In this document: in pieces, positions 3,509-57,757 of the stretch
Layout: every line of letters starts with the position of its first letter
How positions within the stretch are numbered: the first letter of the stretch is position 1
DNA from: Nitrospirota bacterium
Lineage (GTDB): Bacteria; Nitrospirota; UBA9217
Length of the DNA: 64,000 bases
Direction: 5' to 3'
NCBI GenBank assembly: GCA_963751455.1
Contig: CAVVUN010000002.1
Span: 611,505 to 675,504 of the forward strand
Program-made: the position numbers and the translations under genes
The notes under the pieces: generated by a model
What the model saw: only the letters and a program-made list of their open reading frames with translations
Databases searched by the model: none
Told to the model about the DNA's origin: nothing

Positions 3509-3673
3509 CCTAAAAACGGCATTTGAACACGGATGAACACGGAAACAGCGGATCAAAACAATGTGATAGAGCAAAAAGCCATCTCGCCTTTTGGGTGAAT
3601 CCATTACTGTTCGTAACTTCCCTATAAATCCGTGTTGATCAGATTTTATCCGTGTCCAACTGCTTTTTTCAGG
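3509..3673. mobile_element. MITE with CCT...AGG ends, copy 1, enclosing a 10-mer repeat palindrome
   Basis: Ends CCTAAAAA / TTTTCAGG; 5-bp direct repeat TTCAG on both sides; inner arms AACACGGATG / ATCCGTGT. Confidence 0.75.
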
Positions 3674-3771
3674 TTCAGCCAATAGTACGGTCCTCGTTCT
3701 ATTATGCGAACCAACTCCTTTATAATAATTATATCTTTATTTTCAGTATCCGGCATGGTACAGTATGCCGC

Positions 3772-4752
3772 ATGAAAACACCGGCAGCGCGGCTGATAAT
3801 TGTTTTCTTGTTCATTCAGGCTTTTATGTCCCCACGTTCTTCGGTGGCCTTTACCTTCGAAGGCCCTCTGCAGGTGAAGAACCTGTTTCCTCTTTTCATC
3901 CCGGCCGCGCAGCCGTACCTCGAACAGGCATCCCTCCACGATTCCTTTTCCGCCAATATTTCCCATGCAAGCGTCTATATGACACGGGAATCGCCCGCGT
4001 GGAGTTCTCACATGGACCTTGAGTTGACCGAGCTTAACCTCAGGCTTCGGAAAAATTTTCCGGGGCTGTTCGAGGCCGGTGTTGATGTGCCCGTGCTCCG
4101 GGCAACCGCCGGGTTCATGGACCGGCCTCTTGCCTGGTATCATGAGACCTTTGGCTTTCCGGATTACGGTAGAAAGAAGCGGCCGCACAATGAATTTTTG
4201 TATGATATACGAAGAGGCGGCCTGCCGGTTATCCAGGGCAAGAATGACAAAACCGGCTTCGGCGACGTCAGATTAACGTTGAAGAAAGAGATAACACACC
4301 AGGACCCGGCGCTCAGCATTCTGGCGTTCACAGAGCTGCCGACCGGAGATGCGAAGATTGGCTACGGCAGCGGAAGTTTTGACTGGGGTTTCGCAGCTCT
4401 GCTCGATAAGCAAGTGATGACGGACGCCAGGATATACGCGAACCTGGGCGCATTTTTTCCCGGCGATTTGAAAGCGCACCAGACAGTCAAGTTGAACGAT
4501 TTCTACTACGCGGGCCTGGGAGTGGAATATTTTGCATTTCAGAACCTGAGTCTGTTGGTGCACTGCCTGGCGCAGACTTCTCCCTATCCCCACACCGGCA
4601 TTTCAAAAATCGACAATACCGGAATGCTTCTTGTCTTCGGCGGCAGAAAGTACACACGATCGGGCAGCTATGAACTGTCCCTGAGCGAGGACTTGAGCAC
4701 GGCCGGCGCGCCCGACTTCATCTTTAACCTTTCCTACATCACCCGATTTTGA
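3772..4752 (+). CDS. DUF3187-family outer membrane protein
   Basis: Signal peptide, GPL.VKN.FP, GFMD..L.WYH..FG, GFGDV.L, ELPTGD and EDL...APD motifs; ends in F. Confidence 0.75.
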   Translation: MKTPAARLIIVFLFIQAFMSPRSSVAFTFEGPLQVKNLFPLFIPAAQPYLEQASLHDSFSANISHASVYMTRESPAWSSHMDLELTELNLRLRKNFPGLFEAGVDVPVLRATAGFMDRPLAWYHETFGFPDYGRKKRPHNEFLYDIRRGGLPVIQGKNDKTGFGDVRLTLKKEITHQDPALSILAFTELPTGDAKIGYGSGSFDWGFAALLDKQVMTDARIYANLGAFFPGDLKAHQTVKLNDFYYAGLGVEYFAFQNLSLLVHCLAQTSPYPHTGISKIDNTGMLLVFGGRKYTRSGSYELSLSEDLSTAGAPDFIFNLSYITRF

Positions 4753-5183
4753 TTCCGCGAAAAATTTGTTGATCTTCTGCTTCCGCCTTCAGTAGCACCC
4801 AATCGAAGACTTATAAATAAATTGGATTAATTTTGTATGAGGGCTGCCCGTATATCAGTCTTTATACGGACAGATTGTTGCCACCCGTGAGAGTGAGTGT
4901 TATTCTTTTACCAGCGTGATGCATGGAGCATCAGTCAGTGCATTCATACGCCTAGCTCTTCACCATCCGGAAGCATGAGTGTTCTTCCGGATACGCAGCC
5001 GCTTTACCAGATTCTCGCATTATTATTTGACAGAAAAAACTAACCGTCGTTATCAAGACCGGCTCAACACGCCAGAAAGAGAGTGGAGGCCGGGAAGAAA
5101 GGAGGGATGAAAGGAAATATTCTCAGAAACGTTTGTTTAAGTCTCTTCAGAGAGTCTCTTCGAACAGGATGGAAGGAGGAACC

Positions 5184-6491
5184 ATGTTTAAAAAAATAAT
5201 CATAGTTTCAAGTCTGTTGTTTATCGCCTGGGTGCTTTTCCCTCCGACGAACGGTAATGCCATGCCGAATTTTGCGCGAGAATACGGCGCGGACTGCACT
5301 ATGTGTCATACCAATATTCCGAAATTGAACAGGACCGGATATGAATTCAGGCTGGCCGGCTACCGGTTACCTTCAGAGATCGGGAAGGAAGAGAAGCCCT
5401 TCAATCTCGGAGATTTCTTTGCAGCGCGGTTCCAGGACCAGTTTCGTTATGCGGTATCAAAACCGGCCGTCGGAGAAAAAAGCACCACCAACCAGCTCGA
5501 GTTCCTCGAATTCACAATGTATCCGCTGACCGGTTCCTGGGGAAGAAACTTTGCATCGATAGGGGAACTTTCGATGGCCCCGGATGACGTATTCGAATTT
5601 GAAAATGCTTATGTTCGGGGTGCGTACGGAAACGACGCAGGGTGGTTCCAGGCAAAAGTCGGCATCATGCATCCATGGGAAGGCTTCGGAGCCTCCGACC
5701 GGCCGATCGGAACGGTCCGTCCGCTGTTCCAGAGGCAGAAAACGGCGGCCTCGCCCTTCGTCCTGTGGAACCTGGACGAGTCGGCCGTAGAAGTGGGCTA
5801 TCATATCGGAGCAAGCGGGACGTCGATAGCCGGCCGTCTGAGCAACGGAATCATGTGGAAAGGAGACCAGTCAGGCAATGCAGAGCCTGCGCAGGGAGGC
5901 GCATTATCCAAGACCGAGAATGGAAATACCCTGGGTGTCGACCGCAAGAATTATCAGTTTTTCCTGAACCAGTTCTTTGCCCGGGAGTCGGCAGTGACGT
6001 TGTATTATTACCGCGGGGTTATTCCGTTTGTGGATACCAGCCTTGATACAATATCCGGGAACACCCTTGAAACCTTTACCCGTTATGCGGCATACGCGAA
6101 TTTCTGGGTGGTGCCATCAAAAGTGAACCTTCTTGCGGGTTATGCGATGGGGAAGGACTCCCCGGACGATGGTACGCTGGTTGCTACCGGTGTAACCGAG
6201 GACGGAACCGTGAGGACCTTCAATGCCGCCAATGCCGGGAAAAGCAAAGGCGCCTTCGGCGAAGTGGATTTCCATGCTTCTCCGAAAGTGGCTTTTGCCG
6301 GCCGCTATGACACTTTTGATCCCTCGGATAAAACCGGAAGGGACAAGCTGACAGCAGAGACCGTATCCGCAAACTGGTATATAGTGAGCGGCCTTCAGCT
6401 GATCGCCGATTACCAGCATAAGGATACGGAGAAAACTGCGGGAAAAACTAAAGACGACTTGTATCAGGCACGCATGATTTTTATCTGGTAG
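5184..6491 (+). CDS. cyc2: Cyc2-like fused monoheme cytochrome c / beta-barrel porin
   Basis: After the signal peptide: AMPNFAREYGADCTMCHTNIPKLNRTGYEFRLAGY, matching the Cyc2 pattern P.FAR..G..CxxCH...P.L...G..F...G. Then about 380 aa of amphipathic strands ending in W; AGGAGG RBS. Confidence 0.75.
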   Translation: MFKKIIIVSSLLFIAWVLFPPTNGNAMPNFAREYGADCTMCHTNIPKLNRTGYEFRLAGYRLPSEIGKEEKPFNLGDFFAARFQDQFRYAVSKPAVGEKSTTNQLEFLEFTMYPLTGSWGRNFASIGELSMAPDDVFEFENAYVRGAYGNDAGWFQAKVGIMHPWEGFGASDRPIGTVRPLFQRQKTAASPFVLWNLDESAVEVGYHIGASGTSIAGRLSNGIMWKGDQSGNAEPAQGGALSKTENGNTLGVDRKNYQFFLNQFFARESAVTLYYYRGVIPFVDTSLDTISGNTLETFTRYAAYANFWVVPSKVNLLAGYAMGKDSPDDGTLVATGVTEDGTVRTFNAANAGKSKGAFGEVDFHASPKVAFAGRYDTFDPSDKTGRDKLTAETVSANWYIVSGLQLIADYQHKDTEKTAGKTKDDLYQARMIFIW

Positions 6492-6514
6492 CACGGAAAG
6501 CGTTTGCGTAAAGC

Positions 6515-6545
6515 AGCCGGGCCCCCAAAAGGACCTGGCTTTTTT
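6515..6545 (+). terminator. Rho-independent terminator
   Basis: AGCCGGG...CCTGGCT stem followed by a T run, just after the stop. Confidence 0.7.
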
Positions 6546-6928
6546 GTTTCCTGCTGCTGAATTTCAACGGCTCTCCCCGGTCGAACAGCTGTCCAGCTCA
6601 TCAAAGAAGCATGCCCCTTGATTTTGACGCGGATGTATGCTATAGAAGAATAGTAATGACAAAAGATGAGATGGGTCTCAGCCATGAAACAGACAGCAGA
6701 TAAACAGAGAAAACAGCAGACGACCTCCGCCAAACCGTCTAAGCCGGCATGTGGAACGCTCATCCACATCGCCGAATGCCGGGGGAGCTTTTGGAAACCA
6801 GGTTCCATACGGTGGCAGGGCGCGGCCGACACGACGAACAGGACCGTCAGAAAATACAGGGTCGACGGATAAACTTCTGTTCCGTTGTTGTTTCCTTAAT
6901 TTTCTAACGCGTACCGGAAAGGCAAGCC

Positions 6929-7120
6929 ATGTGCGATCTTAAGGCATATGTCGCAAAAAACGGGAAAGAGGAGTTGGTCCTCGAATCCGTGAACCAGGTC
7001 GTTGCGGATGGAGATGAGATCGTCATACGCAACCTTTTCGGAGAAGAGAAACGTGTGCGCGGCGCGGTAAAGGAAGTTTCCCTTTCCAGGAGCCGTCTTG
7101 TTGTCGAGCAGGGTAAATAA
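6929..7120 (+). CDS. cooT: CooT-family nickel-binding protein
   Basis: 63 aa beginning MC; E.VLESV and NLFGEEK.V.G.VKEVSL pattern. Confidence 0.8.
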   Translation: MCDLKAYVAKNGKEELVLESVNQVVADGDEIVIRNLFGEEKRVRGAVKEVSLSRSRLVVEQGK

Positions 7121-7246
7121 CGGCTATCCGGTTCTTGTTTATTCCGCAATACAACCCACCCAAAAAAAACGCACCAGGCCTGAACCACCGTATCAAAAAT
7201 CGATTGACATAGCCGTCGAGAGGGATTAATTTACTGTATCTAAAGT

Positions 7247-8695
7247 ATGTTTAACTATTTCCAAAACATCCCGTTAGTCTATCCTATCTATTTTTTCTAC
7301 GGCTCAGCATTCCTTTTTTTAGGCTTTTCAATCTTTATCAAGGACATGAAGGGCAGCAATTTAAAGCTGGCAGACAGCCTCTGGCTCCTTGCGTTGTTCG
7401 GTATCACGCACGGCATCAACGAATTCCTGCAGTTGTATCCGCTGATCGAAGGCGACCATCTGACCCTGTCCCAGATATTCAATGCACGATTGCTTTCGCT
7501 GGTTGTCATGGTGGCATCATATTTTTTTCTGCTCGTGTTCGGCCTTGTTTTAATACTCAATCCCGGCGAAAAACCGCCCCTCTGGATGAAGCTCATTCCG
7601 GGAATTATTTTTTCCATCTGGATTGTGTTTGTGGCGAAACAGGGCTTCAGCAGAAGCATGAGTTTCCTGGCACAGGCGGAGCTCGGCGCCCGGTATACCT
7701 TCGGTTTGTCGGGTGGGCTTATGGCTGCCTATTCCCTGATTTCTTATTCCAAAGAGGTGCGCGTTTTAAGCCAGCGGGTATCGCGTCATTTGAGATACGC
7801 CGGTATAACTTTCGTTCTGTATGCCGTTTTTGCAGGCGTTTTCGTTACCGCGTTCTTCCGGCTAGTCAGCTTTCCATACGCAATCGAGCTTCTGCGGGCT
7901 GTGTGCGCGATGATTATTACGTATTTCATAATCAGGGCGCTGAACATATTCAACATCGATACCCGCAGGAGGATTGAACAGCAGATGAAGCATCTTGCCC
8001 AGACCGAAAAGCTGAGCTCGCTCGGACAACTGGCAGCGGGCATAGCCCACGAAATCAACAACCCGCTGACCAATGCATCACTGGGCATCGAAACAATACG
8101 GCAGAAGCTCATTTCGAACAGCGGCGACCCGGAAATGATCAACAAGCTGAACGCGGTCGAGCGGAACATCGACAGGGCGTCATCCATAGCCCGCGAACTG
8201 CTGCAGTTGTCCCGGCAGAAAGAGTGTGAATTTGTTCCGGTTGATATCAATTCAGTGATCCAGGCCACCTTGACGCTGATGAAGCACAGGCTCGAAGACT
8301 TCAAACTCAAGCAAAACCTGATGCACGTTGCAGAGATCATGGGCGACCCGGGAAAAATGGAACAGGTTATTATCAATGTTTTGTCAAACTCGATTGAGGC
8401 GATGCCTGAAGGGGGAGCTATTACGATCTCCTCGTTAAGGAGTAATGATTATGTCAAGGTGCAGATCGCGGACAGCGGAATAGGGATACCCGAAAAAAAG
8501 ATATCGAGGGTATTCGATCCCTTTTTTACCACGAAGGAGCTGGGAAGAGGAACCGGCCTTGGTCTGACGATATGCTACGGCATCATTCAACAGCACCATG
8601 GATCCATACAGATAGAGAGCACTGCAGGAAAGGGCACGACCGTTACGATCAAGATCCCGACGAGGGAGCATTATGAAAAATATACTTATCGTTGA
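7247..8695 (+). CDS. Multi-pass membrane sensor histidine kinase
   Basis: Hydrophobic N-terminal half; [17 protein letters not shown]-box; N, D/F and G boxes (DSGIGI, PFFTTK, GTGLGL). Confidence 0.95.
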
Positions 8696-9326: not shown

Positions 9327-9426
9327 TTCCAATAGTTTTTCTCGTCTCACACCACTCTCTCGCTTCAGCAGATATATTGCCCGCAAATTAGTTTCCTCCT
9401 CTTTCCCAAAATTATAATTCGGCAGC

Positions 9427-13916: not shown

Positions 13917-14122
13917 TGTAGTGTCTCTTAAATGGATGGTGTTATATGATCATTTCTCATCGAACTTATCTTCGCATAAATATTTGCTGATGAATTTGTA
14001 GGGCGACCCTTTAGGGTTGCTGCTGTTCCGGCGCTTTCAGCAAGGCTAAAGCCTTGCCCTACAAGTTTGGCTGCGGCCTACTGCCGCGCTATGATAACAC
14101 CAGTCGTTTGTGAGACACTACA
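13917..14122. mobile_element. MITE with TGTAGTGTCTC TIRs, copy 1 of 3
   Basis: Near-identical to 44910-45113 and 48837-49040. CTAG on the left only. Encloses the GTAG-REP doublet GTAGGGCGACCCTTTAGGGTTGC / GCAAGGCTAAAGCCTTGCCCTAC. Confidence 0.9.
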
Positions 14123-18141: not shown

Positions 18142-18420
18142 GCAATGCCTCGCAGTGAAGGTATATCATTAATGATAGCACGAGCGGATTTAGTCAGTTA
18201 CAAGTCAAATTCTTCTCAAAATGGGGAGAATATTTACCGCGAAGGCGCGAAGAACGCGAAGGACATCAAAACAAAGAGGATTTTGTTTTAATTCAAGACT
18301 TGCAAGGTTTTCTTCGCGACCTTCGCGCCTGGTTTATTGCTGTCAAGTATTTTTATTCTTTTTTATGTTTTATCTTTCTTCAAGCTTTGGCTTAAAAGAA
18401 TGACTTCGATCTTAGGTGCG

Positions 18421-18573
18421 GCACCTCGCCCAATCCTGGTATTAGAGGGTCTCGACAGAGCCCAAACCTTGCTTTATTGGGACTAAGGTGCAAGCGGGGA
18501 GTTATGTAAGCTTTGCGAGAAGGTCGGCATAGCCGCCTTAGATGGCGCGAACGATAATCTCCCCCGCCTGCAC
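18421..18573 (-). ncRNA. Putative IS110 bridge RNA (target-binding loop, then donor-binding loop)
   Basis: Two stem/internal-loop/hairpin units. Loop segments TTCGCGCC and TCGCAAAG match the target; AAAGCAAG and AATACCAG match the circle junction. Confidence 0.8.
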
Positions 18574-18588
18574 GCTAAAACATTTGAG

Positions 18589-19848
18589 TTACGCAGCCTC
18601 GAGCTGAAACGATTTTTTTATGTAATCTTCTTCGTAAACGCTATGATCACGTACGACGGCAAATATGATTCCGAGAAGCTTCCGCGCGACAGCGATCAGC
18701 GCTTTGGTCTTGATCATTCCACGATCGAGATACCGCCGATACTGTTGGTGCATTACGCCGTCTTTGCGAACGGTATTGAGCGCGGCAAAGTACAGAAGTT
18801 TCCGGAGCAGCGGCCGGCCTCGCTTGGAAATGCGGCGCGTCCCTCTATGCTTGCCCGAGCTGATCTCAAAGAGGTCAAAACCGGCGAGCTTCATGATCTC
18901 CCCGAGGGTGCTGAACTTTCGGAAATCGCCCACTTCGCCGATGAGACCGGCAGCGGTGACCTCGCCGATCCCTTTGAACGAAAGAATCGAGTTGCTGTAG
19001 GGAATCTGCTGAAGTTGAAGAACCATCTCCGCTTCCAGTTCGGAGTTAAATTGCTCAGAGACCTCCATAGCGGCAAGAATCGCTCGGATCTCTCGGAGGA
19101 TGCTGGCTTGGCCTTCGGTTACGCCTACGGACGATTCTGCGGCCTCGTAGAGCGCTTGGGCTCGGTCTGCTCCAAGCTTGCCCCGGCTCACCTTTCTGAT
19201 CGTCTGGGTGAGCTTGTCAACGCATTGCGCCGCAATCTCCTTTGGTGTCGGGCAGTGTTTCAAAAGATGTTTCGCAGTTGCCGTCTTTACATCTTTCATT
19301 ACCTGCTTAAACTCTGGAAAAATGATCGCGATCAAGCCCTGAAGCTGATTCACCAATGCCGTGTGACGCTGGGTGCTCCTCTCTCTGGCCTGGGTCAGCC
19401 TCCGAAGCTCGGCGGCGGGACCTTCCGGGATCACCACGCTCAGGGCATGTCCAAGCTCTATGATGTCGGCAATGACCTTGGGGTCTTTCTGGTCCGTCTT
19501 GTTCGGAGAATTGCCCTGGAGCTCTTTAACTCTCTTGGTGTGCATGGGATTTACCTGTACAAGTCGCACGTCTCGCGCCCGCATGAAATGCACCAGAGCC
19601 TCGGCGTACGACCCGGTGGATTCGTATCCAAAGACAATTTCGTCGAGATTATGGATTTCCTTCGCCCGGGATATCCGCTGCCAGAATTCGTGGAAACCCG
19701 ACCCGTTGTTCGAGAAAGGAAAACTCTTCACGTCGGTTCCATCCGGACAGCGCCAGTACCCGTAATGTTTGTCTTTGCCCATATCAGCGGTCACGATAAG
19801 AGATTTTCCATTGACTACTCTAAACTTTTTTGTTTTAATCTTCTTCAA
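18589..19848 (-). CDS. IS110 DEDD recombinase/transposase
   Basis: TTG start with GAGG RBS; D(MGK), ESTG, KTDQKD, GIGEVTAAGLIGE, SSGK...ISKRG...LR, AVARKL. Confidence 0.95.
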   Translation of the reverse strand: MKKIKTKKFRVVNGKSLIVTADMGKDKHYGYWRCPDGTDVKSFPFSNNGSGFHEFWQRISRAKEIHNLDEIVFGYESTGSYAEALVHFMRARDVRLVQVNPMHTKRVKELQGNSPNKTDQKDPKVIADIIELGHALSVVIPEGPAAELRRLTQARERSTQRHTALVNQLQGLIAIIFPEFKQVMKDVKTATAKHLLKHCPTPKEIAAQCVDKLTQTIRKVSRGKLGADRAQALYEAAESSVGVTEGQASILREIRAILAAMEVSEQFNSELEAEMVLQLQQIPYSNSILSFKGIGEVTAAGLIGEVGDFRKFSTLGEIMKLAGFDLFEISSGKHRGTRRISKRGRPLLRKLLYFAALNTVRKDGVMHQQYRRYLDRGMIKTKALIAVARKLLGIIFAVVRDHSVYEEDYIKKSFQLEAA

Positions 19849-20056
19849 GGCTATACCTCTTTCTTCGGTTTGGATTACCAACTTGCCAGCTGGTTTCAAA
19901 TCGAGAAAGAGTATAGCCTTTTTTAAGTAAGGCTCAATTGCTTTCTGCAATATAGCAAGCTTCGCGGTTCCAAGGTTTTAGTTCCGGATTTCCCGGGTTA
20001 GGATCAGAAGCGCTTCTTAATCCCCGCAAAAGAGTCTTTGCCGCATGCTATTTGGA

Positions 20057-25247: not shown

Positions 25248-25267
25248 AAAGTATTTGCTATGCTTTG

Positions 25268-25872
25268 GTAGCCGCAGGCTTCAGCCTGCGTGTTTTTGTT
25301 CGCTACATGATGCTATACAAAATACCATTCAGGTCACAACCGAGTGACCCGCTGTATGAGTAATCCCGCCAGTTAAGTACCAAACCTTTTCTGACCGGAT
25401 TGTCGAGAATATACCTTATGTGTACTTCTAATTTATCGTCGGACCGTATGATATGATCATAAAAATCTTTTTGCCATTTTAGCTCAGGCCTGTGCGACGA
25501 TAACCAGAACCCGGTTTGTTGTTTATAATTTATTGCCGTTTTCCATAGATCAGAAGCATCTGATTGACCACTTATCAGTAAGTGCAGATGATCCGGCATG
25601 AAACAATAAACCGGCACGATGCAATTTTCTTTCTCTATAGTCTTTCTGAGAATATCTTTGAACACGCTTACGATATTTGCCTCAGCGAAAGACGGCTTTT
25701 TATCCTTCATGCATAATGTGAATGATACGGACACCGGTCCCTTATACAATTCCCTGGGCAACCTATGATTTTTTTCCCGTATCGACATATTTATTATGAG
25801 GCGCAGGCTGAAGCCTGCGGCTACCAAGCATGTGTCTTCCGTGAACAAACGCAGGCTAAAGCCTGCGGCTAC
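25268..25872. repeat. Three GTAG-family REPs flanking the RAYT gene
   Basis: GTAGCCGCAGGCTTCAGCCTGCG at 25268-25290; inverted copies at 25802-25824 and 25850-25872. Confidence 0.92.
25303..25788 (-). CDS. REP-associated tyrosine transposase (RAYT, HUH Y1)
   Basis: YCFMPDHLH, WQKDFYDHIIR, YILDNPVRKGL; flanked by inverted REPs. Confidence 0.92.
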   Translation of the reverse strand: MSIREKNHRLPRELYKGPVSVSFTLCMKDKKPSFAEANIVSVFKDILRKTIEKENCIVPVYCFMPDHLHLLISGQSDASDLWKTAINYKQQTGFWLSSHRPELKWQKDFYDHIIRSDDKLEVHIRYILDNPVRKGLVLNWRDYSYSGSLGCDLNGILYSIM

Positions 25873-25883
25873 CGATTTTACCG

Positions 25884-28366: not shown

Positions 28367-28520
28367 CCTAAAAAGGCAGTTGGACGCAGATAAACGCAGA
28401 AACGTCGGATTAAATCGAAGACTTGGATCGAAACGAAAAGTCACCAAATGAAGTAATGGTTTTTTATTTATCTTTATCCGATGTTATCCGATTTTTCCGC
28501 GTCCAAACGCTCTTTATAGG
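28367..28520. mobile_element. CCT...AGG MITE, copy 2
   Basis: CCTAAAAAGGCAGTTGGACGCAGAT...GCGTCCAAACGCTCTTTATAGG; flanks TCCAT / TTCAT. Confidence 0.75.
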
Positions 28521-29646: not shown

Positions 29647-29814
29647 GTAACTACTCAGGTCATTTTTTTATCCGCAGATTACGCAGATTTCGCAGATAAA
29701 AACAAAACCAGAATTCCGGTTTTAGAATCTGCGTCAATCTGCGAAATCTGCGGATAGAAGGGCTTTTTCTTAGATTTGTCTTAATGCTGTTCTGAAAAGA
29801 AGCTGAGTAGTTAC
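29647..29814. mobile_element. MITE with GTAACTACTCAG TIRs and 8-bp TSD (IS66-like ends)
   Basis: Perfect 12-bp TIR; AAAATAAA on both sides; inner palindrome ATCCGCAGATTACGCAGAT / ATCTGCGAAATCTGCGGAT. Confidence 0.85.
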
Positions 29815-31920: not shown

Positions 31921-32206
31921 ACGGGGCCCTTGTTATTTGGGATCAGCGCAGCCAAAAAGCGTTGCATATTGGTTTTGCATAATAATCATTGCTTGTGCTT
32001 GTTTTTGCACAAAACCGCCTCATTATATCATAAAAATGAAAGATTGTGTCCAGCTTTATTTGTTTAATTTTTGGGAATGAGGGTGTCATTCGAAGAGATT
32101 TTTTTGCGACGCGGCAATATCTATTTTTTACCAGGTAGCCGCATCCTTTAAAAACCTTTACTTCGCATTATCTTTAAATTTGAGTTTTTGAGAAGCTAAA
32201 AAGCAT

Positions 32207-32437
32207 TTACCGCGAAGGCGCGAGGAGCGCGAAGGAAACCATACGACAAAATCTTATTTCTGGTTTAAACCAGTTTCAATTCCTGCTTTCCTCGCGTCCT
32301 TCGCGCCTTCGCGGTTCCAAGGTATTTTTTCATCGGTCTGAGGCCTTGCCTCGTTAAAGATTTTCTTACGCTTCTTTGCGGCTTTGCGCGAGACGCCTTG
32401 GCTTTGATCTTTTGGTTCCGGTTTGTCCGCGTTAGGG
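32207..32437. repeat. Empty 9-mer palindromic element plus adjacent repeat arm
   Basis: TTACCGCGAAGGCGCGAGGAGCGCGAAGG ... CCTCGCGTCCTTCGCGCCTTCGCGGTTCC; ends GGTTCCGGTTTGTCCGCGTTAGG. Confidence 0.85.
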
Positions 32438-40494: not shown

Positions 40495-40627
40495 GATGAT
40501 CTCGTAAAAAGTCGTCTCCCCGGTGAAAACCGGGGTCCAGTGGTTATCGAACTTATTGAAAAGACTGGATACCGGCGTTCGCCGGTATGACGAAATTGGG
40601 TGTTTTCTGACTTCTTACGAATGCATC
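40495..40627. mobile_element. MITE with GATG..TCGTAARAAGTC TIRs and 6-bp TSD
   Basis: ACAGGT on both sides; encloses the CGTC-family REP pair CGTCTCCCCGGTGAAAACCGGGGTCCAG / CTGGATACCGGCGTTCGCCGGTATGACG. Confidence 0.85.
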
Positions 40628-41930: not shown

Positions 41931-41945
41931 ACCTAAATCTTTCTC

Positions 41946-42131
41946 CTAACCCGGACAAGCCGGAACCAAAACCGTTGAACCGCCAGGGCGCAATGGTCGC
42001 TAGGAAGGCGCTCAAACCAAATACTGGATTTTTAATATCAAAAACGTTTTCCGGTTTCCTCGCGTCCCTCGCGTCTTCGCGGTAAATATTTTGTTGCCTT
42101 TTAGAGAAGATTTTCACTCGTAACTGAGTAA
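41946..42131. repeat. Empty 9-mer palindromic element
   Basis: CTAACCCGGACAAGCCGGAACC...AACCGCCAGGGCGCAATGG...CCTCGCGTCTTCGCGGTAAATATT...GTAACTGAGTAA. Confidence 0.85.
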
Positions 42132-42475: not shown

Positions 42476-42597
42476 GGTATTCCTCCGTATAGGCGATCAG
42501 CTTATCATCGTTCATTATTTTCCGCAAGATGGAACTTTCCGAATCCTTACCGCGAGGTCGCGAGGGACGCCAGGAAAGCCTTGAGTGCGCAATCACA

Positions 42598-42974
42598 TCA
42601 CAGGTTATTTACCATTCGCTTGATGCCGTCTTCATGCGTGGCACGTGCCAGTTCAATATAAATCCAAGTTTGCAATCCTTCATCTTAAGATAGGTCAGCA
42701 ATTGAGCCTCATGTATCGGGAGAAGCCGTTCCACGGTCTTGTGTTCGACAATTACGCAGTCATCGACGATCATGTCGATTCGGTATCCCGCTTCAATGGA
42801 GACACCTCTGTACAGAATCGGTAGGACCACTTCACACATCACCTGTGAGCCTTCCTGTTTCAGGTCATATTCCATGGATCTCTGATACGCTGATTCGAAC
42901 AAACCCGGTCCCAAGGCGGTGTGCACTCTCATGGCTGCGGCAACGATTTTACCAGCGACTGTTTCAATGTCCAT
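42598..42974 (-). pseudogene. GxxExxY protein (PD-(D/E)XK nuclease fold), one-base frameshift near the C-terminus
   Basis: VHTALGPGLFESAY, YRIDMIV...VEHK, HEAQLLTYLK. The usual DGIKRMVN tail is in the adjacent frame (shift at about 42631). Confidence 0.88.
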
Positions 42975-43060
42975 CGGCCCTGATCCCTTCCGGACTTCCT
43001 CGCGTCCCTCGCGCCTTCGCGGTTCCGAAGTTTTAATCCGGGTGTTTCCCGGGAAGTTAA

Positions 43061-43797: not shown

Positions 43798-43974
43798 CCT
43801 GAAAACGGCAGTTGGACGCAGATGAACGCAGATTTTCGCAGATAAAACCGGACATTCAGGTGTAAAGTAGCTTCACCACAAGGGTGAGCTTTTTTCAGTT
43901 TCAGAAGTATTTTTTTATCCAGTTTTTATCCGCGTTTATCCGATCTTATCTGCGTCCCAATCGCTCTTTTTAGG
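43798..43974. mobile_element. CCT...AGG MITE, copy 3
   Basis: CCTGAAAACGGCAG...CTTTTTAGG; ATAAT duplicated on both sides. Confidence 0.85.
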
Positions 43975-44604: not shown

Positions 44605-44909
44605 CTAGTACAGCGTAAACTTAATTATTAAAGGTTCAACGCCGTCATTCCGGCGTGCTTTTCGCGGGTCAAACCAGAACCAATCAGATTGAACCGCGAG
44701 GGCGCAAAGGTCGCCAGGAAGGCGATACTTCTCTTACATATTACGGGAATTTCGCTTTCCTCGCGTTCCTCGCGACATCGCGGTAAATATTCTTTGCCGT
44801 TTTGAGATAAATTCTATTTGTAACTGACTACCGGAACCCGACTAATCATGCCGGGTGACGTGCAAGCAGAGGTGCAAAACTATCAAAAAACATTTTTACA
44901 GTGCACTAG
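44605..44909. repeat. Nested repeat block: CTAG-flanked element containing a CGTC-REP pair and a 9-mer palindromic element
   Basis: CTAG-TACAGCGTAAA...TTTACAGTGCA-CTAG; CGTCATTCCGG...CCGGGTGACG; inner element 44664-44830 ends GTAACTGACTA. Confidence 0.65.
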
Positions 44910-45113
44910 TGTAGTGTCTCTTAAATGGACGGTGTTATGATGATTTCATCGAAAACTTATCTTCGCATAAATATTTGCTGATGAATTTGTAGGGCGACCC
45001 TTTAGGGTTGCTGCTGTTCCAGCGCTTTCAGCAAGGCTAAAGCCTTGCCCTACAAGTTTGGCTGCGGCCTACTGCCGCGCTATGATAACACCAGTCGTTT
45101 GTGAGACACTACA
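44910..45113. mobile_element. TGTAGTGTCTC MITE, copy 2
   Basis: Perfect 11-bp TIR; CTAG on both sides. Confidence 0.92.
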
Positions 45114-48667: not shown

Positions 48668-48836
48668 CTGAACCTCTCCCTTGGAACGCAGATAAACGCG
48701 GATGAACGCAGAAAAAAAATTACTAAAAGAAGTTACCTTACAAGTGCCCCACAAAGAAAGCGGGCTTTAAAACTAATTCTTAATCTTTTTGCTTTCTTCG
48801 TGAAATCTGCGTACGAGTGGAGCCCCTTCCGGCTAG

Positions 48837-49040
48837 TGTAGTGTCTCTTAAATGGACGGTGTTATGATGATTTCATCGAAAACTTATCTTTGCATAAATA
48901 TTTGCTGATGAATTTGCAGGGCGACCCTTTAGGGTTGCTGCTGTTCCGGCGCTTTCAGCAAGGCTAAAGCCTTGCCCTACAAGTTTGGCTGCGGCCTACT
49001 GCCGCGCTATGATAACACCAGTCGTTTGTGAGACACTACA
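48837..49040. mobile_element. TGTAGTGTCTC MITE, copy 3
   Basis: Perfect TIR; CTAG on both sides; a few substitutions versus copy 2. Confidence 0.92.
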
Positions 49041-51400: not shown

Positions 51401-51534
51401 CGGGCTGTTGCCCAAACCCCCGTTCACCCTTCGACAGGCTCAGGGCGAACGGTGTAGCCATTGACTAGTACAAATAAATTTTTCCGTTCGTGCTGAGCCT
51501 GTCGAAGCACAAAATCGGTTTGGGCAACAGCTCG
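51401..51534. mobile_element. MITE with CGRGCTGTTGCCCAAACC TIRs and TTAA TSD
   Basis: TIR matches at 17 of 18; TTAA on both sides, the right copy containing the rhlB stop; encloses a CTTCGACAGGCTCAG / CTGAGCCTGTCGAAG pair. Confidence 0.88.
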
Positions 51535-52785: not shown

Positions 52786-53269
52786 ACCTCTCCGTGCGCC
52801 GTTATATTATTGAAGACTTTATGTCAACATAAAAGTTCCGACAATATAATACCATAACTTGCGATTTGAGAGAAGCATAAAGTTCGGAAGACTTATGGCC
52901 GCGTTATTAGATGCCCGGTATTGATCATTTCGTACCACATTGCTTCGGCTTGATGGCGGTGTGTTTCGAAAAAGCAATTTCAACTATTCGGGAAAGCAAT
53001 TGCCGCACGCGGAGAAAAAACACGCAACGCAGAAAATAATCGGCTTGTTTGCTGGAGTATTCTCTTGAAAATAAAAATATCGTCAGCGGGTCAATGTTAA
53101 TACGAATATTTTATTCCGGAAATGATATTTAACCCGCGCGACGGCAGCTGCAAGAAAAAATTGGGAAAATGTGCTTTTTACCATTAAATTTGTGACAAAA
53201 ATATTTTGTACCATTTTTGCTGTTGATAAATTGTCTAAGTCTCGGAAATATAATTTCTTATATTTTCTT

Positions 53270-53307
53270 GTTGACAAAACGTACACTATTGTTGTATATT
53301 TGTCTAC
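53270..53307 (+). promoter_or_regulatory. sigma70-like promoter overlapped by an inverted repeat
   Basis: TTGACA-18-TATATT; imperfect inverted repeat GTTGACAAAACGTACA / TGTATATTTGTCTAC. Confidence 0.6.
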
Positions 53308-53314
53308 GAGGTGA

Positions 53315-53887: not shown

Positions 53888-54362
53888 CGCGCTCAAAGAC
53901 ATGGGGATAGTTGAAGAGCGGACTGCCGAGATCGCCGAGGTGATCGCCCTTGTAACCAGGGCAGAGCGGGATCTTGCGACGAGTAAATTTTTGCAGGAAA
54001 AGGACGAAGAATGGGCGTTTGCCGCGGCGTACCAGGCAATGGCGCGCTCCGCACGGGCGCTTATTCTGTCCGAAGGCTTCAGGCCAAAAGGCGTCCGCAG
54101 CAGGGACACGCATAAGACGGTCGTAACGGCATCGGGGATGCTTCTCGGCGAGCAGCATAAGAGCATGAACAACAAATTCGACCGTATGCGGAGAAAATAT
54201 CAAAGCTTCATGGAAGAAGCAGGCCGTATCATCTCCCGGTACGAGGCGGGGCAGGCTATAAAAGACGCCGAAGAATTCCTGTCCATCGTAAACGGCAGAA
54301 TACGGGAAAAATACTCGCAGATGTCACTGCTGAATGATGTTCCTCAGCTCGTTTCAAGATAA
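53877..54362 (+). CDS. HEPN-domain protein with a degenerate RNase motif
   Basis: AERDLA.....WAF..AYQAM...RAL....GFRP....H; FDRMRRKYQSFM lacks R-X4-H; overlaps the upstream gene. Confidence 0.8.
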   Translation: MNYNALKDMGIVEERTAEIAEVIALVTRAERDLATSKFLQEKDEEWAFAAAYQAMARSARALILSEGFRPKGVRSRDTHKTVVTASGMLLGEQHKSMNNKFDRMRRKYQSFMEEAGRIISRYEAGQAIKDAEEFLSIVNGRIREKYSQMSLLNDVPQLVSR

Positions 54363-54409
54363 GGCCGCTTAAGTCCGAACGCGGTATTCCGAAAGGGGGT
54401 GGAGCGATA

Positions 54410-54472
54410 ATGGCAGCCAAGAAGAAAGCGAAGAAGAAAGCGACCAAGAAGAAAGCCACCAAAAAGAAGTAG
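54410..54472 (+). CDS. 20-aa Lys/Ala-rich micropeptide MAAKKKAKKKATKKKATKKK
   Basis: AAAGGGGGTG RBS, ATG...TAG; GC-rich hairpins follow at 54481-54524. Confidence 0.65.
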   Translation: MAAKKKAKKKATKKKATKKK

Positions 54473-54625
54473 TTTTTATACCATTCCCCGGGATGGGGCA
54501 CGCCGGGGGGCAACCCCCCCGGCGAATTTATAAAAGCGGTATTGATCGATACAGGATTGTTCATGCGGCTTCATATGTTTGATGCTATCTAACCTACTTA
54601 TTGATGAAAGGGGGTGAAGATTATT

Positions 54626-54682
54626 ATGGCGACGAAGAAAGCCCCGGCAAAAAAAGCGAAGAAGACCACGAAAAAGAAATAA
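54626..54682 (+). CDS. 18-aa Lys/Ala-rich micropeptide MATKKAPAKKAKKTTKKK
   Basis: Same AAAGGGGGTG RBS; ATG...TAATAA. Confidence 0.65.
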   Translation: MATKKAPAKKAKKTTKKK

Positions 54683-54796
54683 TAACTCGACCACGGATTA
54701 GAAAGCAGCTGCGGTAACTATGAATTCTTACCACGAAGAAGGTCTTCGTGGTTTTGTTTTTCAGGCCCGGCGAGCGGTAAGATTCCAGGGAATACC

Positions 54797-55123
54797 ATGC
54801 GCAAGCGGAATTATGTGAAAAGCAGATCCAATGCAAATACTGCCCGCGGGAAGAAGCTGGTTTTCGCTGCCGGTATTCTTCTCGCGCTTTACCTGCTCGC
54901 AACATTCATTTTCGGCGAGATGGGGCTTGTCAAATATTACCGGATGAAGGCGCAGTCTGATCGACTGTCCGGTGAGATTGCGAAGCTGAAGCAGGATAAT
55001 GCAAAACTTGTTGGAGACGTTCACTCTCTCAGAACGGATCCCGCCCATCTTGAAAGAATCGCGCGCGACAAACTGGGCCTTGCGCGGCCCGGTGAGATAG
55101 TGTACTATTATAACGAACCGTAA
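54797..55123 (+). CDS. ftsB: Septum formation initiator (FtsB/DivIC)
   Basis: One TM helix, FGEMGL, coiled coil, LERIARDKLGLARPGE. Confidence 0.88.
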   Translation: MRKRNYVKSRSNANTARGKKLVFAAGILLALYLLATFIFGEMGLVKYYRMKAQSDRLSGEIAKLKQDNAKLVGDVHSLRTDPAHLERIARDKLGLARPGEIVYYYNEP

Positions 55124-55189
55124 ATTTATTCATCATCCCTTTGACTTAAACGGAAGACGCTCCGACCAGTTCAGCCGCACTGATATTCC

Positions 55190-57394
55190 ATGTCCGACCA
55201 TCCCCTCTCCATAGCGTTCGTCTGGCACATGCATCAGCCTTACTACAAGGATGATATTTCAGGCTCCTATATTCTTCCCTGGGTGCGCATGCACGGAATC
55301 AAGGATTACTACGACATGCCGGCGCTCCTGAACGATTTTCCCCAGATCCATCAGACCTTTAATCTCGTTCCTTCCCTCCTGAAGCAGATCCTCGATTATG
55401 TAGAGAATGGGGCCTCAGACAAGTTTCTTGCGCTCGCCGCCAAGCCTGCCGTTGACCTCGACCAGGAGGACAAGCACTTTTTATTGAAAAATTCATTCAT
55501 GGCGAACTGGGACACCATGATCAAGCCGTATGCCGGTTACTGGCAGCTGCTGGACCGCAGGGGATACAGCGTATCTCCGAACGATTTCCGGAACGCCACC
55601 CGCTATTATACGACCCAGGACTATCTGGACCTTCAGGTCTGGTTCAACCTTACCTGGTTCGATCCGCTTTTCAAGTACACGGACCCGTTCCTGAAGGGAA
55701 TGATCGAGAAAGGCTCCGGTTTCAGCGAGAATGAAAAGGCGCTTCTCATTCAAAAACAGCGGGACGTTATGGCCCTGATCATCCCGGAGTACCGGAAGCT
55801 TTCTGAAATGGGAAGCATTGAACTTACGACAACGCCTTTTTATCACCCGATTCTGCCGCTCCTGTGCGACACGGATCTTGCAAAGGCAGCGGCGCCGGAC
55901 ATACGCCTGCCGGCAAACAGGTTCGCGCATCCTGAAGATGCCCGCGCCCAGATCGAGCGTGCTCTCGAGTTTCATGAAAAACTGTTCGGAGCGAGACCGG
56001 CGGGAATGTGGCCGTCTGAAGGGTCCGTTGCCGAGGAGATCCTTCCGCTCATAGCTGATTCCGGCGTCAGCTGGATCGGGACCGACGAGGGCGTTCTTGC
56101 GCGCTCGCTTGGAATCCATATAGAACGCGACTTCGCCGGCGTCATGAAGAACCCGGACGTTTTGTACAAGCCATACCTGGCAGGCAAGCCGGATCGGCCG
56201 GTATCAATGGTTTTCCGCGATCATACACTTTCCGACCTCATCGGCTTCGTCTACTCGAAATGGGATTATAAAAACGCGGTTCACGATCTCATCGACCGGC
56301 TGCACCGCGTGCGCAAGAGCGTTTCCAACGGACCGCACCTGGTCTCGATCATCCTGGACGGGGAAAATGCCTGGGAATACTATCAGAACGACGGGAGGGA
56401 CTTCTTCCTCTATCTTTACGAAAAGTTGAGCCGCGAGCAGGGACTGCGCTGCGTCAGCGTGGGCGAATACCTGAAGGAACATCCGGCGCAGGCCCGGATC
56501 GAACGGCTCCATGCGGGGTCCTGGATCAATGCAAATTACCGCATATGGATCGGACACGAAGAGGACAACCAGGCATGGGACCTTCTTTCCATGACCCGCA
56601 ACGCTCTTACTGAATACGCTTCACGCAATGGCGAGCCTGAGGCGCTTGCAAAGGCATGGGAGGAAATCTATATCGCCGAGGGAAGCGACTGGTGCTGGTG
56701 GTACGGAGACGACCATTATTCCGAGAATGACGAAGAGTTCGACCTGCTGTTCAGAACGCATCTCATGAATGTGTACCGTATTATCGGTCTCGATGTGCCC
56801 GACGAACTGCAGATCTCCGTGCTCCGCGAGGACCGCCAGGCGCTGCCCACTGTGGAACTGACCGCTTTTATCTCGCCCATTATAGACGGACAGGTAACGA
56901 ACTATTTCGAATGGCTTCCCGCCGGATTCTACGACGTCAGCCAGGGCGGCGGCGCCATGCACCGGGGCGCTTCCATCATCTCGCATATCTACTACGGCTT
57001 CGATCTGAAGAACATGTTCATGCGTCTCGACGTCAGCGGGAACCTGAAGGACGAGAAGGTGACGGACCTCGCATTTTTCATCAATTTTTTAAACCCGAAG
57101 GGCTACGATCTCGAAATAGGGGTCGTACCCAGCGAACGCCGCGTAAGCGCCGCACTGTTCCGGTTCGAGAACGGAAAACGGAACCAGGCGGCGGCAATCA
57201 ATACCGTCGCGGCCAATGATATAATAGAAGTTGCCGTACCCTTCGAGCTGCTCGGTATAAAGCCGAACGACGACGTGCAGGTCTTTGTGACCGTGGAACG
57301 GGCCGGGTCGGAGATCGAGAAATGGCCATACCGCGGCTTTATCCAGTTCAAGGCTCCAACCGACGATTTCGAGGCCATGATGTGGCAGGTGTAG
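55190..57394 (+). CDS. Glycoside hydrolase family 57 (amylopullulanase type)
   Basis: WHMHQP, HPILPLL, WPSE, LDGENAWE, AEGSDW.WW. Confidence 0.93.
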   Translation: MSDHPLSIAFVWHMHQPYYKDDISGSYILPWVRMHGIKDYYDMPALLNDFPQIHQTFNLVPSLLKQILDYVENGASDKFLALAAKPAVDLDQEDKHFLLKNSFMANWDTMIKPYAGYWQLLDRRGYSVSPNDFRNATRYYTTQDYLDLQVWFNLTWFDPLFKYTDPFLKGMIEKGSGFSENEKALLIQKQRDVMALIIPEYRKLSEMGSIELTTTPFYHPILPLLCDTDLAKAAAPDIRLPANRFAHPEDARAQIERALEFHEKLFGARPAGMWPSEGSVAEEILPLIADSGVSWIGTDEGVLARSLGIHIERDFAGVMKNPDVLYKPYLAGKPDRPVSMVFRDHTLSDLIGFVYSKWDYKNAVHDLIDRLHRVRKSVSNGPHLVSIILDGENAWEYYQNDGRDFFLYLYEKLSREQGLRCVSVGEYLKEHPAQARIERLHAGSWINANYRIWIGHEEDNQAWDLLSMTRNALTEYASRNGEPEALAKAWEEIYIAEGSDWCWWYGDDHYSENDEEFDLLFRTHLMNVYRIIGLDVPDELQISVLREDRQALPTVELTAFISPIIDGQVTNYFEWLPAGFYDVSQGGGAMHRGASIISHIYYGFDLKNMFMRLDVSGNLKDEKVTDLAFFINFLNPKGYDLEIGVVPSERRVSAALFRFENGKRNQAAAINTVAANDIIEVAVPFELLGIKPNDDVQVFVTVERAGSEIEKWPYRGFIQFKAPTDDFEAMMWQV

Positions 57395-57494
57395 CGAAAT
57401 GTCGTCCCGTTTTCCCATGCTCATTCTCATGCGTATCATGTCAAAACGCCCCTCATAATAGTATCTTATTACCTTATAATAATTACTCTTTTTC

Positions 57495-57522
57495 TTGACA
57501 AGAGACTCGTTTTTTGTATAAT
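57495..57522 (+). promoter_or_regulatory. sigma70 promoter for glyQS
   Basis: TTGACA-16-TATAAT. Confidence 0.65.
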
Positions 57523-57583
57523 AACAATCTATTTTTTAATGTTCCGCGCTTGTCCGGACAGCCCCGGAAACAGCAGCAATAAT

Positions 57584-57757
57584 CCTGAAAACGGCAGCTG
57601 GACGCAGATGAACGCAGATAACCGCAGATCAAACAAAAGAATTTTTAGAGAAAAAAATTGACCCGCGGGGTGACTGCTTTTACGATACAAGAACGTTTTT
57701 TTATCCGACCTTATCTGCGTTTATCCGATTTTTCTGCGTCCCAAATGCTTTTTTAGG
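57584..57757. mobile_element. CCT...AGG MITE, copy 4, in the glyQ leader
   Basis: CCTGAAAACGGCAG...TTTTTTAGG; ATAAT duplicated on both sides. Confidence 0.85.

What the first reader, a model, noticed from the sequence alone, without database searches (positions are those of the whole stretch)
3509..57757. Five unrelated MITE families, each wrapping a REP-like palindrome
Seen: (a) four CCT...AGG elements with 5-bp flanking duplications (3509, 28367 imperfect, 43798, 57584); (b) three TGTAGTGTCTC elements at CTAG; (c) a GTAACTACTCAG element with an 8-bp TSD (29647); (d) a GATG element with a 6-bp TSD (40495); (e) a CGGGCTGTTG element with TTAA (51401). Each interior is an inverted pair of short repeats: GTAG-REP, CGTC-REP, CTTCGACAGGCTCAG or GCAGAT arrays. 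Some of these also occur without TIRs (48683-48811, 58758-58883). Known: CCT ends with 4-5 bp TSD fit IS1380, and GTAA ends with 8 bp fit IS66. Inference: palindromic repeats are repeatedly packaged between DDE-type ends and spread as composite elements. I do not know of a description of this as a general rule.
Basis: partly seen in the sequence, partly recalled or inferred. Interest (0 to 1): 0.8.

Follow-up and report, generated by a model that had tools for sequence, protein, structure and literature searches.

The report
Transposon ends ferrying REP hairpin pairs
This bacterium holds over 200 tiny non-coding elements in which the ends of five kinds of jumping gene enclose hairpin repeats that elsewhere flank unrelated small nuclease genes, so these repeats likely spread by hitch-hiking on transposases, apparently favoured when the element's length and a probable DNA-bending site let its two ends meet.

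Summary
Confirmed. All five families are real, at the stated coordinates. The genome holds 229 end pairs, 174 with a perfect target duplication.

The ends match IS1380-like, IS630, IS66, IS1182-like and (weakly) IS5-like elements, and only the terminal 12-29 nt are shared. The interiors are gene-less doublets of repeats that flank RAYT, Ssn (GIY-YIG) and GxxExxY nuclease genes. Eleven of 20 end-by-core combinations occur in this genome. Clean empty sites exist.

The rule is not universal: across GTDB 27 of 63 family-d and about 6 of 40 family-e elements carry such doublets.

New here: lengths of a, d and e elements are helically phased. In d and e an IHF-like motif sits at a fixed distance from the ends whatever the core, and also in hairpin-less elements.

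Best reading: type II MITEs selected for a bent, phased geometry, which repeatedly recruit REP doublets and spread them. One published MITE wraps a REP (QMITE2). This scan noted the shell-and-core pattern before in other genomes. New variant of a known kind.

The parts
3509..3673 (+). Family a MITE (164-bp lineage): IS1380-like 17-nt ends directly abutting a GxxExxY-type doublet
   Evidence: 5-bp duplication 5/5; ends 17/18 and 16/18 identical to the 1624-bp IS at G000:C3:259081
28367..28520 (+). Family a MITE, older 154-bp lineage
   Evidence: duplication 4/5
43798..43974 (+). Family a MITE, 177-bp lineage
   Evidence: duplication 5/5
57584..57757 (+). Family a MITE, 174-bp lineage, upstream of glyQ
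   Evidence: duplication 5/5; absent from the glyQ-upstream region of 9 of 9 relatives examined, which are too diverged to read the empty site
13917..14122 (+). Family b MITE (IS630-type ends) with GTAG-REP doublet at 13998-14062; right duplication broken
44910..45113 (+). Family b MITE, GTAG-REP doublet 44989-45053, inserted at CTAG
   Evidence: the same REP type flanks the RAYT-like gene at G000:C15:331964
48837..49040 (+). Family b MITE, GTAG-REP doublet 48916-48980
29647..29814 (+). Family c MITE (IS66-type 12-nt ends) with GxxExxY-type doublet at about 29670-29755
   Evidence: 8-bp duplication; ends 11/12 identical to 1725-bp IS66 elements L396 and L413
40495..40627 (+). Family d MITE, 133 bp (IS1182/ISNCY-like ends), with two Ssn-related-motif (CGTC REP) arms at 40513-40540 and 40565-40592
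   Evidence: 6-bp duplication; both arms match the published SRM pattern; ends 15/16 and 19/20 identical to the 1873-bp IS
40550..40561 (-). IHF-like motif in the spacer of the family d element, centred 61 and 72 nt from the two ends
   Evidence: same register in 24 of 38 d-type elements of 128-136 nt; IHF binding is inferred
51401..51534 (+). Family e MITE (IS5/IS1182-like ends) with doublet 51430-51506; this copy has no IHF-like match
   Evidence: TTAA duplication
48687..48811 (+). GxxExxY-type doublet without family a-e ends (degenerate)
58760..58880 (+). Free GxxExxY-type doublet between glyQ and glyS, unique flanks
25265..25873 (-). RAYT gene between GTAG-REP arms: a source cassette for one core class (this REP type also fills some family e elements)
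   Evidence: NF047646 over cut-off; arms
42545..43023 (-). GxxExxY (PD-(D/E)XK) nuclease gene between inward-facing short-repeat arms: a source cassette for the array cores
   Evidence: TIGR04256 over cut-off, PF13366; arms
41944..42130 (+). Sixth, asymmetric shell ('f', no terminal inverted repeat) around a GxxExxY-type doublet
   Evidence: 40 left ends genome-wide, with several different doublets; no partner transposase found

Best explanation
These are miniature non-autonomous transposons that keep only the terminal repeats of five insertion-sequence families and carry gene-less REP-type doublets from RAYT, Ssn and GxxExxY nuclease cassettes; they are likely moved in trans by the matching DDE transposases, and likely persist because their length and (in families d and e) a predicted IHF site bring the two ends together.
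Steps:
(1) Nuclease cassettes flanked by bare repeat arms, and hundreds of free doublets, are the source of cores. Shown by co-location.
(2) A doublet comes to lie between a pair of IS ends and the IS interior is gone. End state shown; route inferred (insertion into a mini-element followed by trimming, or repair of a hairpin break).
(3) Composites whose end-to-end length is in helical phase, and which in d and e have an IHF-like motif about 50, 61, 72 or 82 nt from the ends, are the ones that amplify. Pattern shown; selection through an IHF-bent synaptic complex inferred.
(4) The transposase copies the whole unit, duplicating the target. Duplications and empty sites shown; enzyme action inferred.
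The doublet is a frequent passenger, not a requirement.
For: Ends.
- Cognate IS in the genome for a (4 copies) and d (5 copies); in relatives or GTDB for b, c, e.
- Identity stops after 12-29 nt; no BLAST match of six window interiors to 16 IS or IS-end sequences.
Cores.
- Inward arms flank GxxExxY genes on both sides in 19 of 30 family loci (reversed control 8) and 52 of 79 GTDB loci (control 1).
- CGTC arms flank small GIY-YIG genes and match the SRM pattern of PMC11893778.
- GTAG arms flank RAYT genes.
Combinations: 11 of 20 end-by-core classes are complete in this genome; three more occur elsewhere (L051, L085, L496/L579).
Mobility: 9 of 174 emptied sites have a gap-free copy of at least 96% identity elsewhere in the genome. 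Three relatives hold the orthologous GIY-YIG gene without the d element and with one copy of the duplicated codons.
Geometry.
- Length phasing at 10.2-11 bp: d (35 lineages, 0/1000 null), e (20, 0/1000), a (14, 12/1000).
- Central IHF-like motif in 12 of 35 d and 5 of 20 e lineages, shuffled 0.5 and 0.2; same register with SRM cores, CTTCGAC cores and no core.
- Motif follows 21 of 30 SRM arms with a d end upstream, against 10 of 93 without.
- No enrichment of the strict consensus in free doublets: 26 of 185 vs 22.5.
- IHF alpha gene over cut-off.
Against: - No formation intermediate was caught and nothing was tested at the bench.
- No full-length IS with b, c or e ends was found in this genome; its own IS630, IS66 and IS1182 copies have other or weakly similar ends.
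- The relaxed IHF-like motif was chosen after seeing the d elements. With the strict consensus (at most 1 mismatch) the counts were 14 of 40 d lineages (shuffled 4.3), 2 of 33 GTDB e lineages (1.6), and 0 of 5 own d, 0 of 3 b, 0 of 4 c.
- The unfiltered GTDB e set showed no phasing (R 0.05 at 10.5 bp; 345/1000). It appeared only after requiring a target duplication and adding loci.
- b and c show neither signal (8 and 4 lineages); a has a central motif in 1 of 14.
- Lineages were split at 80% identity and may share ancestry.
- No clean empty site for e; no cognate gene found for the CTTCGAC core.
Confidence: 0.65

Rival explanations
1. A few ancient composites were inherited and diversified; shared lengths and the central motif reflect descent, not selection on geometry, and true captures were few.
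For: The family a composite is in 19 of 63 genomes of the family. d-by-SRM elements of 132-133 bp recur across many GTDB and metagenome records. A similar 17-nt linker follows one d end in filled and hairpin-less elements (by eye).
Against: Cores with no evident sequence relation (SRM, CTTCGAC, two GxxExxY arrays) all reach 131-134 bp in d shells. d and e shells share the 59-61/70-72 register. The four central bases of the motif vary while its flanks do not. d-by-SRM comes in two layouts (spacer 15 or 24 nt) with the same length.
Confidence: 0.15
2. The elements are deletion products of larger cassettes in which IS ends enclosed a whole REP-nuclease gene-REP unit.
For: The flanks of the GxxExxY gene at G000:C12:21596 resemble degenerate family a ends (by eye). 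Passenger-carrying non-autonomous elements are known (PMC4133298, passages).
Against: None of 109 GxxExxY loci (30 family, 79 GTDB), and none of the 16 of 18 GIY-YIG loci where a gene was parsed, is enclosed by two ends of shells a-e or by an f end. Larger family a copies in relatives contain nested repeats, not genes.
Confidence: 0.1
3. The direction is reversed: doublets arise inside MITEs, and free doublets are MITEs that lost their ends, as proposed for QMITE2.
For: 126 of 524 detected non-coding doublets outside a-f share flanks with other doublets, and many sit next to one decayed end. PMC5896051 section 8 reads small QMITE2 copies this way.
Against: The same arms flank nuclease genes across phyla with no shell. 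225 of 524 doublets have unique flanks. Free doublets lack the IHF-like enrichment and the 15/24-nt spacer classes of wrapped ones.
Confidence: 0.07
4. The interiors are ordinary subterminal repeats or RNA hairpins of the parent IS, unrelated to REPs.
For: MITEs commonly fold into stable hairpins (PMC3184786, PMC10969869, passages).
Against: The parent IS have no such arrays inside their ends (9 of 10 IS subterminal stretches fold at z above -3). The arms match nuclease-flanking repeats and the published SRM pattern.
Confidence: 0.03

Closest known systems
Type II prokaryotic MITEs (PMC10969869, passages)
   Same: Short, non-coding, similar to an IS only in the terminal repeats, target duplications, moved in trans.
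   Different: Here the core is recurrently a doublet belonging to an unrelated nuclease system, and the same core classes recur in several IS families.
QMITE2 of Coxiella burnetii (PMC5896051, section 8 and passages)
   Same: A MITE with terminal repeats and 7-9-bp direct repeats whose core is a GTAG REP; shorter end-less copies exist.
   Different: One family, one core, no IHF site reported; the authors read the REP as a truncated MITE. Here five or more shells, four core classes, parent IS identified.
REPIN-RAYT systems (10.1101/2021.07.10.451892, PMC3733652, PMC6006769; passages)
   Same: Inverted REP doublets with a variable spacer, and a cognate gene flanked by the same arms.
   Different: The mobile unit here includes IS ends and leaves family-specific target duplications. 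The bioRxiv text treats REPINs and MITEs as distinct classes with rates about 1000-fold apart.
Ssn nucleases and Ssn-related motifs = CGTC REPs (PMC11893778, passages; PMC3733652)
   Same: The d interior matches the SRM pattern on both arms, and such arms flank small GIY-YIG genes here.
   Different: In the passages I saw neither paper places SRM doublets inside IS ends ('MITE' occurs 0 times in PMC11893778). [quoted passage not shown]
IHF sites in Correia elements, QMITE1 and E. coli BIMEs (PMC2229807, PMC3184786, PMC5896051; passages)
   Same: An IHF site in a MITE core, suggested to aid transposition; IHF sites between REPs.
   Different: Those are single families. A fixed register to both ends, length phasing and persistence across exchanged cores did not appear in the passages or searches.

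Membership tests
MITE (type II) | Terminal inverted repeats, short, non-coding, multicopy | tested here: met
   229 end pairs, mostly 123-209 bp
MITE (type II) | Target-site duplication with single-copy empty site | tested here: met
   174 of 229 perfect; 9 clean in-genome empty sites (8 a, 1 c); orthologous empty gene for d; frame continuity for b; none clean for e
MITE (type II) | Similarity to an IS confined to the ends | tested here: met
   12-29 nt shared, no interior match
MITE (type II) | Mobilisation in trans by the cognate transposase | not testable with these tools
   needs a transposition assay
IS1380 family (shell a) | Cognate IS with IS1380-type transposase, CC ends, 4-5-bp duplication (end and duplication rule recalled) | tested here: inconclusive
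   PF13701 over cut-off; NF033539 E 2e-34 but 119 bits against cut-off 180; ends and 5-bp duplication fit
IS630 family (shell b) | IS630 transposase between the same ends | tested here: met
   10 elements of 0.93-1.2 kb among 125 loci; 2 of 2 proteins tested pass the NF033545 cut-off; no copy with these ends in G000
IS630 family (shell b) | TA duplication (recalled) | tested here: inconclusive
   CTAG target fits either reading; 4 off-target copies favour TA, 1 favours 4 bp
IS66 family (shell c) | IS66 transposase between the same ends with 8-bp duplication | tested here: met
   L396, L413: 1725 bp, PF03050, ends 11/12 identical, perfect 8-bp duplications; the IS66 in G000 shares only 8/12
IS1182 family (shell d) | Transposase over the family cut-off | tested here: not met
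   NF033551 171 bits against 270; DUF772 plus DDE_Tnp_1_6. IS1182-like only; the ISNCY ISDol1 group is a recalled lead
IS5/IS1182 clan (shell e) | Cognate transposase between the same ends | tested here: inconclusive
   L331 and L334 (1.3-1.5 kb); a 60-aa piece of L334 hits NF033581 at E 9e-17, below cut-off; L327 protein has no NCBIfam hit
REPIN (RAYT-associated) | GTAG-tagged inverted doublet whose arms also flank a RAYT gene in the genome | tested here: met
   b, some c and some e cores; RAYT-like genes at window 25303-25848 and G000:C15:331964
REPIN (RAYT-associated) | Duplication by RAYT, without IS ends | tested here: not met
   amplified copies include IS ends and IS-type duplications
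Ssn-related motif (CGTC REP) | Match to the degenerate SRM pattern and association with small GIY-YIG genes | tested here: met
   19 of 28 d copies match on one or both arms; arms flank GIY-YIG genes
Ssn-related motif (CGTC REP) | Cleavage as single strand by the cognate Ssn | not testable with these tools
   biochemical test
IHF-bent element | WATCAA-N4-TTR site (consensus as quoted in PMC5896051) at a fixed distance from the ends | tested here: inconclusive
   met for d and e with a relaxed, post hoc motif; not for b or c; a not central; binding untested
Rfam RNA family | Match to a covariance model | tested here: not met
   0 hits in the window and in 8 loci

The most novel reading that the evidence does not exclude
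IS ends, a phased IHF site and exchangeable hairpin cores form a general modular mobile element. Hairpin-cutting nucleases (RAYT, Ssn, GxxExxY) feed cores into IHF-bent mini-transposons, and DDE transposition of these composites, not the nucleases, is the main way CGTC/SRM and GxxExxY repeats multiply in these sediment-type bacteria.
Probability: 0.3. Interest if true: 0.75.

Novelty: new variant of a known kind. Interest (0 to 1): 0.58.

Why it matters
It gives a concrete route for the spread of CGTC REPs, which were reported to lack a dedicated transposase. Of 76 metagenome SRM doublets sharing one arm, 16 lie inside d ends alone and more inside other ends. It joins two classes that are treated as separate, slow REPINs and fast MITEs. 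It also turns an old suggestion, that IHF sites in MITE cores aid transposition, into a sharp test: fixed distances of about 50, 61, 72 and 82 nt and lengths in steps of about 10.5 bp. That may explain why type II MITEs have cores unrelated to their parent IS.

Tried and rejected
- Orthologous empty sites in relatives: the nearest genomes are other genera at about 80% identity. The element before glyQ is absent in 9 of 9, but the site cannot be read.
- Sequencing runs for polymorphic insertions: none was listed; this is no evidence.
- Frame restoration as a general empty-site test was too noisy; many controls also gave long frames. It was used only for two GIY-YIG genes.
- Of 30 emptied sites with a BLAST match across the junction, 21 were dropped as gapped, under 96% identical or self-overlapping.
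- The first doublet detector missed 149 of 229 catalogued elements; the second missed 70. Free-versus-wrapped counts are therefore rough.
- End-enclosed nuclease genes: 0 of 109 GxxExxY loci and 0 of 16 parsed GIY-YIG loci.
- Cognate gene for the CTTCGAC core: none in the loci printed from 30 fetched.
- Partner transposase for shell f: none at two candidate loci.
- Rfam: no hits.
- A collection-wide survey of family c ends was not done, so the variety of c cores outside this genome rests on 3 elements in stored loci.
- Literature searches found no description of the multi-family pattern or of phasing. The library lacks most subscription papers, and I read no supplements.
Full report
OBSERVATION. 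One of the three (b) copies, 13917-14122, has lost its right duplication. The window is G000:C2:611505-675504 of a 5.7-Mb assembly. Position matrices built from the terminal 13-19 nt only, so blind to the interior, found 229 end pairs: a 105, b 32, c 49, d 28, e 15. Of these 174 have a perfect duplication. By eye, all cluster representatives carry a repeat doublet except two short c elements (50 and 69 bp) and two probable chance pairs. An automatic motif classifier scored 216 of 229 (family a mostly on one arm, a class with false positives). Interiors fold at z <= -3 in 19 of 35 lineages, against 7 of 120 random non-coding windows.

THE ENDS.
Family a: a 1624-bp IS (4 copies) with a 519-aa transposase (PF13701; NF033539 below cut-off), a 5-bp duplication, and ends 17/18 and 16/18 identical to the 164-bp lineage.
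Family d: a 1873-bp IS (5 copies) with a DUF772/DDE_Tnp_1_6 transposase, a 6-bp duplication and ends 15/16 and 19/20 identical (same calls).
Family b: among 125 GTDB loci, 10 elements of 0.93-1.2 kb have these ends, and 2 of 2 proteins tested are IS630. The genome's own IS630 has other ends. Whether TA or CTAG is duplicated is unresolved (4 copies against 1).
Family c: two 1725-bp IS66 copies in relative G099 have ends 11/12 identical and perfect 8-bp duplications; the IS66 in G000 shares 8/12.
Family e: two GTDB elements of 1.3-1.5 kb with IS5-like frames. This assignment is the weakest.
In all cases identity stops at the end of the terminal repeat, and six window interiors gave no BLAST match to 16 IS or IS-end sequences. 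That is the definition of a type II MITE (PMC10969869, passages). I took that term and the shell/core wording from earlier scan note e1-9791850.

THE CORES. The 8-10-bp-period arrays flank GxxExxY nuclease genes, in the genome and elsewhere. Inward arms lie on both sides in 19 of 30 family loci (reversed control 8) and 52 of 79 GTDB loci (control 1). CGTC arms flank small GIY-YIG genes and match the Ssn-related-motif pattern. PMC11893778 (passages) shows Ssn proteins cutting single strands near such hairpins. GTAG arms flank RAYT-type genes, one of them in the window. No gene was found for the CTTCGAC core. Free doublets are common. Of 524 detected in non-coding DNA (reversed-genome control 36), 150 lie in shells a-e, 23 in shell f, 126 share flanks with other doublets and 225 have unique flanks; the detector missed 70 of the 229 catalogued elements.

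COMBINATIONS. Taking four core classes and five shells, 11 of 20 combinations are complete in this genome: a-Gx; b-GTAG, b-SRM; c-Gx, c-GTAG, c-SRM; d-SRM, d-Gx; e-CTTCGAC, e-GTAG, e-SRM. b-Gx, b-CTTCGAC and d-CTTCGAC occur elsewhere. The family a composite is in 19 of 63 genomes of the same taxonomic family and 0 of 237 others sampled from the phylum.

MOBILITY. Of 174 sites emptied in silico, 30 matched across the junction elsewhere in the genome, and 9 did so without gaps at 96% identity or more (8 a, 1 c). A d element interrupts a GIY-YIG gene whose orthologues in three relatives carry the duplicated codons once. A b element interrupts another such gene with the frame continuous across one duplication. 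The glyQ-upstream element is absent in 9 of 9 relatives, but the sites are too diverged to read. No sequencing run was listed.

NOT A UNIVERSAL RULE. Of 63 complete short d-type elements from 121 GTDB loci, 24 carry SRM doublets, 2 CTTCGAC, 1 Gx, 20 another hairpin core, 11 no hairpin (99-120 bp) and 5 something else (classes by eye). Of 40 short e-type elements about 6 carry REP-type cores. Of 13 b-type elements about 10 carry a REP-like palindrome. Conversely, of 131 metagenome matches to one SRM arm, 55 had no partner arm. Of the 76 doublets, 16 lay in d ends, 4 beside one d or a end, 13 in other inverted pairs (some spurious), 38 in none detected and 5 at contig edges.

WHAT IS CONSTANT. 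d lengths cluster at 99-101, 110, 120, 130-134, 143, 150-156 and 161-162 bp. After collapsing to lineages, phasing near 10.5 bp is significant for d (0/1000 jittered sets), e (0/1000) and a (12/1000), not for b or c (8 and 4 lineages). The unfiltered e set had shown none (345/1000). Hairpin-less d elements carry an IHF-like motif 49-51 or 61 nt from the ends. The same motif lies 61 and 72 nt from the ends in SRM- and CTTCGAC-filled elements, with its four central bases free (38 of 85; 24 of 38 elements of 128-136 nt). e elements show the same register. The motif follows 21 of 30 SRM arms that have a d end upstream and 10 of 93 that do not. Free doublets in the genome are not enriched for the strict consensus (26 of 185 against 22.5). 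Wrapped SRM doublets have spacers of mostly 15 or 24 nt, free ones 3-94. The genome has an IHF alpha gene over cut-off. Caveats: the relaxed motif was defined after inspection; the strict consensus gave 14 of 40 (d), 2 of 33 (GTDB e) and 0 of 12 own b, c and d lineages; lineages may be related.

MECHANISM. Shown: IS-only ends, foreign cores, duplications, empty sites, phasing and motif register. Inferred: transposases act in trans; on elements this short the two ends can meet only if the DNA bends in phase, so IHF-bent, phased composites amplify; REP doublets are an abundant filler, cut by their nucleases where that is known, that is repeatedly recruited. How a doublet first enters is not shown. 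The cassette-deletion route found no support (0 of 109 GxxExxY and 0 of 16 parsed GIY-YIG loci enclosed).

COMPARISON. QMITE2 is a published MITE with a GTAG REP core (PMC5896051, section 8 and passages). IHF sites in Correia elements and BIMEs, and the idea that they aid transposition, are in PMC2229807 and PMC3184786 (passages). [quoted passage not shown] 10.1101/2021.07.10.451892 (passages) contrasts REPINs with MITEs. PMC6006769 and PMC4133298 were seen as passages. Nine searches found no account of the multi-family matrix or of phasing. Subscription papers and supplements were not seen. Family rules for IS ends and duplication lengths are recalled, not taken from a call. This scan had noted shell-and-core MITEs and GxxExxY cassettes in other genomes; these are unchecked notes, not support. 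A look-up for the IHF and phasing reading returned nothing.

VERDICT. Real. A new variant of a known kind: type II MITEs that recurrently carry REP doublets, with a testable geometric rule behind them. Interest 0.58.

Noticed in passing
window 41944-42130; also 18191-20003, about 32170-32437, about 44610-44830: A sixth shell without terminal inverted repeats (small hairpin at one end, a different fixed end at the other) has 40 left ends in the genome and wraps several different GxxExxY-type doublets. No transposase found.
   Followed up: partly
window 18331-19959 (approx.): An IS110-like element sits inside one arm of a GxxExxY-type doublet in an f shell, recalling the known targeting of REPs by IS110 elements.
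   Followed up: no
G000:C7:13495 and G000:C2:424819: Two different MITEs (b and d) interrupt two different Ssn-like GIY-YIG genes at the same codons of the C-terminal half.
   Followed up: partly
L542, L520, L516, L352, L376, L360 and others: An unnamed hairpin core fills 20 of 63 d-type and many e-type elements in GTDB (150-162 and 122-127 bp). It has no Rfam hit and often contains a second internal copy of the end.
   Followed up: partly
G000:C12:655431-655499 and C1:44849-44898: Hairpin-less family c elements of 69 and 50 bp, single copies. The 69-bp one looks like a deletion between two T runs.
   Followed up: partly
G000:C2:134545, C3:347003, C2:156461 and similar: At least three more repeated shells around SRM or GTAG doublets; one resembles the ends of the genome's own IS630.
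   Followed up: no
G000:C2:305392-307257, C6:72474-72770, C15:1155001-1155348, C12:340857: Frequent nesting of these elements in one another, and of full IS in them.
   Followed up: partly
G000 family a and c arms; L157, L160, L574: Short extra hairpins are often inserted into repeat arms, lengthening elements by about 22-26 bp.
   Followed up: no
GxxExxY loci L187-L266, L442-L471: GxxExxY genes across phyla are flanked by inward 8-10-bp-period arrays. A full-text search for GxxExxY listed 2 papers, neither about this by title or abstract start.
   Followed up: partly
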